Source of the DNA: Eledone cirrhosa
Taxonomy: Eukaryota
Reading direction: 5' to 3'
Length of the DNA: 64,000 nucleotides
NCBI GenBank assembly: GCA_964016885.1
Contig: OZ024743.1
Span: 102,300,001 to 102,364,000 of the forward strand
The translations under genes and the position numbers were made by a program. The notes beneath the pieces are model-generated. The model was not told the DNA's origin, made no database searches, and saw only the letters and a list, made by a program, of their open reading frames with translations. Shown in pieces: positions 11,799-63,665 of this stretch; within the stretch, counting starts at the first letter, position 1; each line of letters starts with the position of its first letter.

Positions 11799-12406
11799 TG
11801 ATGGCTGCCAACTCGTTTTCGAGTACGGCCACTACTTTATATCCATGTAATAGAACTCCTACCGATGCGCTGAACGAATGTGACTTTAGTCCAGCCAGCG
11901 ACTTGAAAACTCTGGTACAAACACTACACCTGTGACAATTATTGACACATAGTGCTAGGCCCATGGTACCATATGACGACAAGTGCAGAGAGATCTCCAG
12001 ATTTAAAGCAATGCCTGTGCCGTGAAGCTTTTATAGTGAGCAAAGGTACTGCACAAAGCCAGTCCCACTCTCTTAACCAATATGATATTTACCAAAAAGA
12101 AGAACAAGTCAACATCATTGGATACCATCAGAGTTGCAGGTGTTATATCAGAGTTTTCCTTCTCCTAGAATTCTGCCTTGACAAAGGCTAAGGGGTCATC
12201 TCTCCCAGCGATTTTGGATGGCCATTGACTCTTAAGAGCTCCTTTGCCCTTTGACAGGTTTTGTTTTTAGTCCTGCAGGATGTCCAAAGTCACCCTCCTC
12301 ACCAAGAAACCTTGGCGGAGTTGCCAGTTTAGTCCCCAACGACCCGACCATGAGACAGGTTGTACTGGGATACATGTTACCAGTAGCACCAACTGGTGAC
12401 CTGACA
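11799..12406 (-). mobile_element. ~610-bp non-autonomous RTE-derived element, copy 1, within a TA microsatellite
   Basis: Same termini as 63056-63665; RTE 5'UTR-like motif TCTAGGAGAAGGAAAACTCTGA; 3' part encodes [17 protein letters not shown] and ends CTCGAAAACGAG-TTGGCAGCCATCAT. Confidence 0.8.
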
Positions 12407-30244: not shown

Positions 30245-30379
30245 CATATACATATGTACGTCTGGATTGTATCGAACATTAATAATAAAGTTCCATTCGT
30301 TTGTAAACGAACGGTCCGATTTAAAGCTGTGCCGTGCCGGTAACCGATCGTCATCTGTTTGTTCAACACTGATTTTTAG

Positions 30380-30428
30380 GAACAGTCAACATGTTTTAGG
30401 GTCATAACCCTTCATCAGAACTGTATAC
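30380..30428 (-). ncRNA. Degenerate type I hammerhead in a short non-coding insert (~30260-30450)
   Basis: ACAGUU CUGAUGA AGGGU-uaug-ACCCU AAAA CAUGUU GACUGU: stems I and II pair, palindromic stem III, GAAA mutated to AAAA. Confidence 0.65.
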
Positions 30429-30569
30429 CTCTGCCAGTCTGAAATTCTAATTTTCTTTTTAAAATAATAAAAATAATAATATATATATATATATATATAT
30501 AGTCCAGAAATTGCCGTCGAAACGGCTTGAGCTCTGCCGTCGGAGTCATACTTTTTCATATATATATAG

Positions 30570-33000: not shown

Positions 33001-33650
33001 GCATATTAGCAGGTCCACTGATCAGCCAGATTTGTATATCAGCAGACTGGCCAGTCAGTTTCCTCTATACGAGCGATAAATGGGCGGTTTTGCCAAATTC
33101 AAATAAAAAAGAAAATTTCGCTCTAATGGGTGAATACAATAAATGTAATCTGAGTTTTTCAAATATTAGTAATAACATTCGATTCGTTTGCAGTTGTGCA
33201 ATTTTATAGCCATGTCAGTAGAATGAGCACTTCAATCTTACACTTGTGTTGGCATGCGAACTGAACTGCAGACACTAATGATATACAAATCTGGCTGACC
33301 AGTGGATCCGCTAATATGCAGATCTCACAGATCAGCCAGTCTGCTAATATGCAAATCAGGCCGATCAGTCACTGTGTATTTTTAAATATAGCATATATTT
33401 TCACTAGCTCTGACAGTTTGGCAGGTGAAGAGTGAGCTGTACTGATGAAGGGTGATACCTAGAAACATTAGTGTCTGCAGTTCTGTTTGCATGCCAGCAC
33501 AAGAGCAAAAATGAAGTGTTCATTCTACTGACATGGGCATACAATTGAGGTTTGTTTGCATAATTGCAAACGAATCGAATGTTATTACTAATATTCGAAA
33601 AATTCAGATTACATTTATTGTATTCAGCCATGTAAAGCTAAATTTTCTTA
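33001..33650 (+). mobile_element. Non-coding hammerhead-bearing element (retrozyme-like), locus 1, with an inverted 5' segment 33001-33280
   Basis: 33281-33650 and the reverse complement of 33001-33280 are overlapping permutations of one unit; homologous to 62345-62965. Confidence 0.8.
33434..33483 (+). ncRNA. Type I hammerhead ribozyme with intact catalytic core; predicted cleavage after C33475
   Basis: GAGCUGUA CUGAUGA A GGGU-gau-ACCU A GAAA CA-uuag-UG UC UGCAGUUC: 8-bp stem I, 4-bp stem II (A.A at its base), short stem III, GUC site. Confidence 0.82.
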
Positions 33651-61510: not shown

Positions 61511-62344
61511 ATGCAGAGAGGCTGAAAGAAAAGAAAAGAGAGAGAGAGGGAGAAACAGAGAGACAAAAAGAGAAGTAGAAATAAAGTGAGGGAGAAAATA
61601 TAGAGAAAAAATGAAAAAGAGAGAGATAGAGAGGGGGTAAGAGGCTGTGACAAATTTCCGCTAGTTTCTATTTTATATATTCAAGGGATATTGAAAACAT
61701 TGAAAACATGTACTTAACAAAATTCTGTTCCGAGTTAATATATATTAGTTATCAATTATCAATAACCTCCTCATAAATACATAACAGCCCCCATGGAGCC
61801 AAACATACTTCATATTTCTTCATAATAGATCATTTGAGTTTCTAAAAATGATAATCTAATTAAATGATATTCAGATTTCCTGCGTAAAATATAACTACGT
61901 TAGCAGACCAGATATTAATATATATGCTAATTGCAGACATTTCATTTCTCGTGTAATATTTCTCCAAACAAAATAAAGTCGATTATCAGTAATAAGAAAT
62001 AATGTATACAAATTCAAGTGATAGCATTTATGTATTTTTATTTATTTATCATGCATATAAAACGATATGCATGAGAATATGTATGCAAAAATATTTCCAT
62101 TAGTATATCCGAGAATAGGAATGGGTATCAGTCGGTTATGATATATATTAATAATTGTTTCTACTTTTGGCACAAGGCCAGCAATCAACCAGTGTATTAC
62201 TGGTACTTTATTTTATCGACCCCGTAAGGATGAAAGGCAACGTTAACCTCGGCAGGATTTGAACTCAGAATGGCCGTAACTCTATGCGTCAAAGCATGGC
62301 GTCCGACCCTCAACCGATACTGCCAATCCACCGCCATGATATAT

Positions 62345-62965
62345 ATTAATAATAATATTTGATTCGTTTGCCATTATGCAAACAAACTCTTTAAGCCATG
62401 TCAGTAGAATGACTACATGATTCTTGCTCTTGTGTTGGCATATAAGCAGAACGGCACAGACTAATGTTTTGGGGTGATTGCCCTTCATCAGTGCCGTATA
62501 CTGCTTACCTGCCAACTGCCAGAGCTAGTGAAAATATATGATATTTTCTGAAATATACAGTAACTGATCGACCTGATTTGCATATTAGCAGACTACCTGA
62601 TCAGTCAAATCTGCATATTAGCAGACCCACTGATCAGTCACATTTGCATATCAGCAGATAGGCCAGTCAGTTTCATGTATATGAGTGATTAATGGCCGGC
62701 TTTGTCACATTCAAATAACTAACAAATAGTTTTATCGTTCTACATGGCTAATTACAATAAACATAATCTGAGTTTTTCGAATATTAATGATGATAATATT
62801 CGATTCGTTAGCAATTATGCAAACAGCCAGGGTAATTCTACTAAGAAGGCATAAGAGGCTGTTTGCATAATTGCAAACGAATCTAATATTATTATCATTA
62901 ATATTCGAAAAACTCAGATTATATTTATTGTATTCAGCCATGCAGAGCGATAAAACTATTTGTTA
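62345..62965 (-). mobile_element. Non-coding hammerhead-bearing element (retrozyme-like), locus 2: ~1.1 monomers plus an inverted segment 62835-62965
   Basis: ATTATGCAAAC recurs at 62373 and 62814 (period 441); hammerhead on minus strand ~62450-62500: ACGGCA CUGAUGA AGGG...CCCC AAAA CAUUAG UCUG UGCCGU (decayed). Confidence 0.8.
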
Positions 62966-62988
62966 ATTATATATATATATATATATAG

Positions 62989-63055
<67 letters not shown>

Positions 63056-63058
<3 letters not shown>

Positions 63059-63665
63059 TGGCTGCCAACTCGTTTTCGAGTACGGCCGCTACTTTATATC
63101 CATGTAGGAGAACCCCTACCGGTGCGCTGAACGAGTGTGGAATTTTAGTCCAGCCAGGGACTTGAAAACTCTGGTACAAACACTACACTTGTGACAATTA
63201 TTGACACATAGAGCTGGGCCCATGGTACCATGTGACGACAAGTGCAGAGAGATCTCCAGATATAAAGCAATGCCTGTGCCGTGAAGCTTTTATAGTGACC
63301 AACGGCACTGCACAAAGCCAGTCCCACTCTCTTAACCAAGATGACATTTACCAAAAATAAGAACAAGTCAACATCATTGGATACCATCAGGGTTGCAGGT
63401 GTTATATCAGAGTTTTCCTTCTCCTAGAATTCTGCCTTGACAAAGGCTAAGGAGTCATCTCTCCCGGTGATTTTGGATGGCCATTGACTCTCAAGATCTC
63501 CTTTGCCCTTTGACAGGTTTTGTTTTTAGTCCTGCAGGATGTCCAAATGCACCCTCCTCACCAAGAAACCTTGGTGGGGTTGCCAGTTTAGTCGCCAACG
63601 ACCCGACCATGGGACAAGTTTTACTGGGATACATGTTACCAGTAGCACCAACTGGTGACCTGACA
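63056..63665 (-). mobile_element. ~610-bp non-autonomous RTE-derived element, copy 2
   Basis: Collinear with 11799-12406; retains a complete terminal C2H2 finger [25 protein letters not shown]. Confidence 0.82.

What the first reader, a model, noticed from the sequence alone, without database searches (positions are those of the whole stretch)
62345..62965. Second retrozyme-like locus: 441-nt periodicity and compensatory changes in hammerhead stem I
Seen: the minus strand reads D-E-A-B-HHR-C-D, a different permutation from locus 1, with block D repeated 441 nt apart and an inverted C-D copy at its 5' side. Stem I is CUGUA/UGCAG at locus 1 and CGGCA/UGCCG here, i.e. a U-A to G-C double change plus U-G to C-G. 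This copy's GAAA and GUC are decayed. Inference: the source lineages were under selection for ribozyme folding.
Basis: partly seen in the sequence, partly recalled or inferred. Interest (0 to 1): 0.75.

Follow-up and report, generated by a model that had tools for sequence, protein, structure and literature searches.

The report
Decayed copy of Penelope-spread hammerhead repeat
This is a mutated, likely dead copy of an abundant ~438-base non-coding repeat whose family keeps a hammerhead (self-cutting RNA) fold through paired base swaps, carries a box also found ahead of the host's U6 genes that likely acts as a promoter, and was likely pasted into TA repeats by Penelope-type jumping genes.

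Summary
Window 62343-62970 is one insertion of a dispersed 437-439-nt unit (4,942 exact 19-mer hits), so the 441-nt repeat is not a local duplication. The U-A to G-C swap marks one sub-lineage (S3), i.e. one inherited event; the U·G to C-G change is rare in S3. The strong evidence lies between lineages: across four subfamilies and two sister families (61-65% identical to S3) stems I and II change pair type while 12 core bases stay fixed. Family copies bear Penelope marks: 5'-only inversions (84 of 85), (TA)n flanks (154 of 194), clustered 3' ends. All three families keep a box found at -77 to -79 of this genome's U6 genes. 5' truncations cluster just after the predicted cut. This copy's core is broken. 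Cleavage, transcription, circles and the partner element are untested. It is a metazoan non-LTR retrozyme variant; the scan noted this family before on other DNA (e1-9876314, e1-10308957).

The parts
62343..62830 (-). Direct arm: one full unit plus the first 45 nt of the next (partial tandem)
62385..62825 (-). 441-nt monomer; folds at -144.2 kcal/mol, z -8.1, 0 of 100 shuffles as stable
62343..62384 (-). Second copy of block D; 3' end at unit position ~45 in AT-rich target
62832..62970 (+). 5' inverted arm (end of C, D, part of E); outer end at a preferred family 3' end, followed by (TA)n
62561..62659 (-). Three 33-bp repeats with ATGCAAAT, ATGCAGAT, ATGCAAAT
62572..62584 (-). U6-type box TATGCAAATCAG(G), intact; likely promoter element
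62531..62540 (-). TATA-like CATATATTTT (imperfect)
62501..62513 (-). Outer stem I, 5' strand
62492..62496 (-). Inner stem I, 5' strand CGGCA
62485..62491 (-). Core CUGAUGA, intact
62472..62483 (-). Stem II and loop, with a U to C change that breaks the last pair
62457..62471 (-). Decayed GAAA (AAAA), stem III palindrome and cut triplet (GUC to CUG); predicted cut between 62457 and 62456
62452..62456 (-). Inner stem I, 3' strand UGCCG
62437..62449 (-). Outer stem I, 3' strand
62407..62423 (-). Hairpin C; its closing pair is A-U, G-C or C-G by subfamily; damaged here
62968..63056 (.). (TA)n microsatellite flank
62156..62335 (-). Unrelated SINE-like repeat inserted at the 3' end, 18-nt target duplication at 62138-62155 and 62336-62353
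33001..33640 (+). Locus 1: subfamily S0 copy, inverted arm 33001-33280 plus direct arm 33279-33640
30270..30441 (-). Truncated copy of sister family F2

Best explanation
This locus is a core-damaged genomic copy of a high-copy, non-coding ~438-nt repeat whose source lineages kept a type I hammerhead fold by paired base changes; active sources would likely be transcribed from an internal U6-like promoter, would self-cleave (likely as dimers) and likely circularise, and were likely copied into (TA)n sites by a resident Penelope-like retrotransposon. Shown: dispersed family, subfamilies, covariation, stable fold of the unit, insertion anatomy, shared box, resident Penelope-like ORFs. Inferred: transcription from the box, cleavage, circles, two-strand priming that gives the inverted arm, and which element supplies the enzyme. 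After insertion copies decay without regard to pairing; this one lost G12 and the GUC site.
For: Copy number: 4,809 candidates and 40 of 40 scored places at 85% or more; 2,832 exact core matches; 4,942 exact 19-mers. Covariation: stem I pair next to the core is A-U, C-G or G-C, the fourth pair out U-A, G-C or A-U, and stem II GGGU/ACCC becomes AGCU/AGCU; covariation score 0.38 vs 0.18 shuffled (0 of 500) and at most 0.07 when slid. 12 core bases fixed where 52% of 240 columns are fixed (p~4e-4). Subfamily changes keep pairing in 14 of 20 cases vs 38% (734 of 1,921) in individual copies, p=0.004. Consensus circles fold at z -11 to -13; stem III is a palindrome in all three families. Penelope marks: 85 of 194 loci have an inverted arm, 84 at the 5' side, none at the 3' side; 154 of 194 touch (TA)4+ vs 965 of 3,900 controls; 3' ends cluster about 40-50 nt apart, as described in PMC8557442 and PMC11167929. 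RT plus GIY-YIG ORFs with hammerhead-bearing 3' repeats are resident. The box lies at -77 to -79 in 12 of 20 U6 loci (3 distinct promoters) and 87-92 nt before the core in all three families. 14 of 67 arms stop 0-9 nt after the predicted cut vs 22 events in 420 upstream bin-exposures.
Against: No cleavage, transcription or circle data. Rfam does not recognise the motif. An A·A (or C·A, U·U) mismatch closes stem II, and predicted folds put the active form 5.6-7.9 kcal/mol above the minimum for all six consensus motifs. No pLTR homologous to this family among 50 Penelope-like loci. No copy longer than two direct units among 194 loci and only 14 with two direct hammerheads, so circles are not shown. 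6 of 20 subfamily changes break pairs; 8 of the 11 one-sided changes are A/G opposite U, which editing could make. The box-TATA gap is 43-46 nt against 47-49 in U6, whole-promoter alignments were mostly not significant, and S0 has a T6 run that would stop polymerase III within the unit. The truncation bin was chosen after seeing the data, only 3 arms end exactly at the site, and stem I stalling could explain it.
Confidence: 0.72

Rival explanations
1. Same family and enzyme, but the templates were linear, mostly uncut read-through transcripts of tandem source loci or terminal repeats of an autonomous Penelope-like element; circles play no part.
For: 53 of 88 arms cross the cut site and only 3 cross two; none exceeds two units; in vitro a Penelope enzyme used uncut RNA and did not need the ribozyme (PMC11167929); a preprint derives retrozymes from pLTRs.
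Against: Upstream of each hammerhead the copies continue into the same unit, not an ORF; no homologous pLTR in 50 loci; the unit folds as a closed, highly paired RNA; sister family F3 has a four-hammerhead array.
Confidence: 0.15
2. Pairing was selected for RNA structure (stability, recognition by the Penelope protein), while the hammerhead cuts poorly or only with protein help.
For: Compensation also occurs outside the ribozyme (hairpin C, hairpin D); mismatch at the base of stem II; 8 of 9 Xenopus dimers did not cleave; the PAc ribozyme needed protein.
Against: The 12 unpaired or catalytic core bases are fixed across three families; the cut-site base stays C, U or A; truncations step down at the predicted cut.
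Confidence: 0.09
3. The paired changes come from mutation bias (templated repair of hairpins, A-to-I editing fixed by reverse transcription), not selection.
For: 8 of 11 one-sided subfamily changes are A/G opposite U; A>G exceeds T>C at paired sites, 17.3 vs 13.9 per 1,000, p=0.009, polymorphic sites included.
Against: No asymmetry at monomorphic sites (437/30,598 vs 413/29,502, p=0.78); editing cannot give U-A to G-C, A-U to C-G or G·U to U·G; individual copies break pairs in 62% of changed cells.
Confidence: 0.03
4. A local duplication and inversion unique to this locus.
For: The 5' D block and the inverted arm share a 3-nt insertion absent from the 3' D block.
Against: The same anatomy recurs genome-wide; arms within a locus differ by 10%, about twice the distance to consensus.
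Confidence: 0.01

Closest known systems
Metazoan non-LTR retrozymes (Cervera and de la Pena 2020, PMC7229834, parts 2-4 of 6 read; review PMC7761336, passages; preprint 10.64898/2026.07.22.740005, parts 1-3 of 5 read)
   Same: Non-coding 150-450 bp unit, type I hammerhead, low GC, highly paired predicted circle, palindromic weak stem III, co-existence with Penelope-like elements.
   Different: Mostly dispersed 1-2 unit insertions with 5' inversions and fixed 3' ends; a conserved U6-type box, whereas the review says retrozymes seem to lack promoters and a motif pointing to the partner; mismatch on both sides of the stem II base. This copy has one broken hammerhead, so it fails the preprint's 'active' definition.
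Penelope-like element pseudo-LTRs with minimal hammerheads (PMC4209133, part 1 of 4 and supplement search; PMC8557442, passages; PMC11167929, parts 1-2 of 4)
   Same: Partial tandems, 5' inverted truncated copy, optional tail between two 3' ends, (TA)n targets, unpaired base after CUGANGA.
   Different: No ORF; long two-part stem I; extra A before GAAA; no sequence homology to the 50 resident pLTR loci examined.
Newt satellite 2 (Coats, Zhang and Epstein 1994; paper not held; seen only as cited in PMC2220036)
   Same: Hammerhead repeat with an internal snRNA-type promoter.
   Different: Cited as polymerase II-driven; the box here matches U6, not the 5 U2 upstream regions inspected; promoter activity untested.

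Membership tests
Metazoan non-LTR retrozyme | Type I hammerhead with intact core in the family | tested here: met
   Core intact in 210 of 264 parsed copies over six groups (samples partly selected on the core); broken in this copy
Metazoan non-LTR retrozyme | Head-to-tail unit of 150-450 bp | tested here: met
   437-439 nt; 76 of 194 loci exceed one unit, 14 have two direct hammerheads
Metazoan non-LTR retrozyme | No protein coding, no LTR/PBS/PPT layout | tested here: met
   Only short ORFs of 70 codons or fewer within the element; the 68-codon frame from the core ATG is closed in S0 and F2; no tRNA gene
Metazoan non-LTR retrozyme | Highly self-paired predicted circle | tested here: met
   70% paired, z -11 to -13
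Metazoan non-LTR retrozyme | Self-cleavage | not testable with these tools
   Only indirect: truncation cluster after the cut site
Metazoan non-LTR retrozyme | Expression as linear and circular RNA | not testable with these tools
   Needs RNA data from the organism
Metazoan non-LTR retrozyme | This copy active (two consecutive intact hammerheads, preprint criterion) | tested here: not met
   One hammerhead, with G12 and GUC lost
Rfam hammerhead families | Covariance model match | tested here: not met
   No match at E<=1 or E<=10
Penelope-mobilised element | 5' inverted truncated arm, partial tandem, tail, (TA)n target | tested here: met
Penelope-mobilised element | Sequence shared with an autonomous partner | tested here: inconclusive
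   None in 50 loci drawn from 150 scored of 10,597 candidates
Autonomous Penelope-like element | RT plus GIY-YIG ORF between pLTRs | tested here: not met
U6-type promoter | Upstream box shared with host U6 genes | tested here: met
U6-type promoter | TATA at matching distance and start site | tested here: inconclusive
   Gap 43-46 vs 47-49 nt, imperfect TATA; start site not mapped

The most novel reading that the evidence does not exclude
A clade of animal retrozymes that carries its own U6-type promoter inside the RNA, cuts itself with a hammerhead variant closed by a conserved mismatch at stem II, and is copied from both cut linear RNA and circles by Penelope enzymes priming on both DNA strands; the step-down in 5' truncations at the cut site would be a genomic fossil of ribozyme activity in the germ line.
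Probability: 0.35. Interest if true: 0.7.

Novelty: new variant of a known kind. Interest (0 to 1): 0.4.

Why it matters
The papers read propose, but do not show, that Penelope-like elements spread animal retrozymes, and a review states that these repeats seem to lack promoters and partner-identifying motifs. This family gives genomic insertion marks, a conserved box shared with host U6 genes, and a natural series of compensatory hammerhead variants that can be assayed. The locus itself is an old, broken copy (37 differences from its subfamily consensus), and younger families in this genome noted by the scan are better test material.

Tried and rejected
Rfam scans: no hammerhead hit. Expression: no RNA holder listed; laying two contig runs of unrecorded type gave 124 contigs in one and a single 238-nt contig in the other-organism run, not used as evidence. 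Partner search: no pLTR homology in 50 Penelope-like loci; S0 copies near L221 and L280 look like separate insertions; a short AT-rich match near L271 is a minisatellite; 12 further flanks were fetched but only 2 were read. Editing scars: none at monomorphic sites. Shared rare variants between arms of one locus are only modestly raised (5.7-5.9% vs 1.5%) and do not separate circular from linear templates. The within-family tree is poorly resolved; most but not all G-C copies group together, so intermediates (7 U-C, 3 G-A of 171) cannot be called ancestral. A '9 of 9' p-value printed was a miscount (8 of 8 with the S1 structure, 8 of 9 with S0) and is not used. Whole-promoter alignments to U6 were mostly non-significant. 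U2 upstream regions (5 of 15 loci inspected) lack the exact box. The 68-codon ORF is treated as chance. R-scape is not available. Literature: no paper with retrozyme+promoter+octamer; cephalopod searches found no description of this family; a squid genome paper lists 235 hammerhead matches without analysis (passages). The supplement of PMC7229834 could not be read, one of PMC4209133 was not searched and preprint supplements are closed; they may hold cephalopod examples.

Full report
Observation. On the minus strand, 62830-62343 holds one full unit plus 45 nt of the next; block D recurs at 441 nt. An inverted arm occupies 62832-62970 and runs into (TA)n. The hammerhead reads CGGCA CUGAUGA A GGGC AAUC ACCC C AAAA C AUUAGU CUG UGCCG. 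Locus 1 (33001-33640) is 82% identical over 317 columns. A SINE-like repeat with an 18-nt target duplication abuts the 3' end. The genome is a 3.0-Gb animal assembly; a cephalopod is my inference, not tested.

Family. A search with the locus gave 4,809 candidates; all 40 scored places match at 85% or more over most of the query. Exact patterns give 322, 2,832 and 4,942 hits; at about 6% divergence the last implies on the order of 16,000 arms (my estimate). 171 aligned hammerhead copies fall into subfamilies S1-S3, 5.5-7.2% from their consensus (161 scored); locus 1 belongs to S0. Sister families F2 and F3 are 65% and 61% identical to S3. The window copy is S3, with 37 differences.

Covariation. 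The U·G to C-G change occurs in 4 of 100 listed copies of 122. Across groups (264 parsed copies) inner stem I is CUGUA/UGCAG (S0, S2), CUGCA/UGCAG (S1), CGGUA/UGCCG (S3), CAGUC/GAUUG (F2) and CGGUG/CAUCG (F3); stem II is GGGU/ACCC or AGCU/AGCU. Paired fractions in unfiltered copies are 0.74-1.00 per pair. For some searches I gave 60 of the 264 plus the two window copies; 7 truncated or rearranged rows were skipped and one F3 variant was picked by hand. Result: 92.7% of cells paired, 5 of 11 pairs with two-sided change, score 0.38 (0 of 500 shuffles; but 150 of 500 reached the number of such pairs and 481 of 500 the number of pair types). Over the whole unit, subfamily changes keep pairing in 14 of 20 (S1 structure) or 11 of 16 (S0 structure) cases against 38% for individual copies (p=0.004 and 0.013); the structures come from these consensus sequences, which favours them. 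Twelve core bases are fixed against 52% background. The positions flanking the base of stem II are a mismatch in every family (A·A, C·A, U·U), and U·U in several resident Penelope hammerheads. An unpaired base after CUGANGA is known (PMC4209133) and a U·U start of stem II is known; I did not see A·A in the passages read.

Insertion anatomy. Of 194 loci (not a random sample; many were picked by likeness to a full-length query), 85 have an inverted arm, 84 on the 5' side and none on the 3' side; 154 touch (TA)4+ against 25% of controls; 3' ends cluster at unit positions 66-71 and 102-115; 76 exceed one unit, 14 have two direct hammerheads, none exceeds two units. These are the marks described for Penelope-like elements (PMC8557442), and two-strand cleavage with two internal start sites was shown in vitro for one (PMC11167929). 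The genome has 10,597 GIY-YIG candidates; three long ORFs carry RT (two below Pfam's cut-off), two also GIY-YIG, with a zinc-finger linker that I read as Neptune-like. None of 50 loci shares a terminal repeat with this family.

Template. Of 88 arms picked by a motif downstream of the ribozyme, 53 cross the predicted cut, which needs an uncut or circular template; 3 cross two sites. 14 of 67 stop 0-9 nt after the cut, against 22 in 420 upstream bin-exposures (p=8e-5) and 15 in 156 downstream (p=0.02). This is suggestive only: post hoc bin, 3 exact ends, and stalling in stem I is an alternative.

Promoter. ATGCAAAT lies 87-93 nt before the core in S0, S1, S3, F2, F3 and this copy. Following a lead from earlier scan notes, I checked U6: TATGC(A/T)AATNAG is at -77 to -79 in 12 of 20 loci (3 distinct promoters), at -271 in 6 (displaced by a SINE in the one I read), at -276 in 1 and absent in 1; it is absent from 5 U2 upstream regions inspected. 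In the whole window the exact box occurs twice, once in each family copy. By U6 spacing the start would fall near 62506, in outer stem I. Against: shorter box-TATA gap, imperfect TATA, T runs inside the unit.

Mechanism. Shown: family, covariation, fold, insertion marks, box, decay of this copy. Inferred: transcription from the box through the next unit, cleavage (dimer-assisted through the stem III palindrome), ligation, priming by a Penelope enzyme at (TA)n on both strands giving a direct and an inverted arm, then neutral decay.

Comparison. It works like a metazoan non-LTR retrozyme and meets the sequence-level criteria at family level; cleavage and circles are untested, and this copy is not an active member. 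It differs from published examples by the insertion marks and the box; newt satellite 2 is a cited precedent for a promoter. Searches found no description of the family; unread supplements may bear on this. The scan noted this family and related ones before.

Noticed in passing
window 62156-62335 (-): SINE-like ~190-nt repeat with 18-nt target duplication; 22 other matches in the window. Resemblance to octopus tRNA-derived SINEs is recalled, not tested.
   Followed up: partly
L430 (and by position L429, L432-L435), G000:C19 U6 array: The same SINE sits in the TATA box of a U6 promoter, pushing the upstream box to -271; 6 of 16 fetched array copies show this displacement.
   Followed up: partly
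G000:C19:31.78-31.84 Mb; G000:C3:307.35-307.45 Mb: Tandem arrays of U6 genes (about 1.8-kb spacing) and U2 genes (about 2.2-kb spacing).
   Followed up: no
window 63059-63665 and 11802-12406: 607-nt repeat, 94% identical, flanked by TA repeats; the 11.7-13.6 kb copy has RT-like fragments on the minus strand.
   Followed up: partly
L303:1601-2993: Four-hammerhead array of sister family F3 (spacing 435, 476, 481 nt) with a (TA)n hairpin inside the unit.
   Followed up: partly
L274, L275, L283, L284, L240, L276, L280, L287: Resident Penelope-like terminal repeats with minimal hammerheads closed by U·U at stem II; one family has CCAAT- and TATA-like boxes upstream.
   Followed up: partly
window 33789, 34692, 14439: Further CUGAUGA...GAAA motifs of other repeat families.
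   Followed up: no
window 62282-62488 (-): 68-codon frame starting at the ATG inside the ribozyme core; closed early in S0 and F2.
   Followed up: partly
L321:680-1740 on the minus strand: ~27-nt minisatellite resembling the TATA-like region of family F2, 2.5 kb downstream of a Penelope-like ORF.
   Followed up: partly
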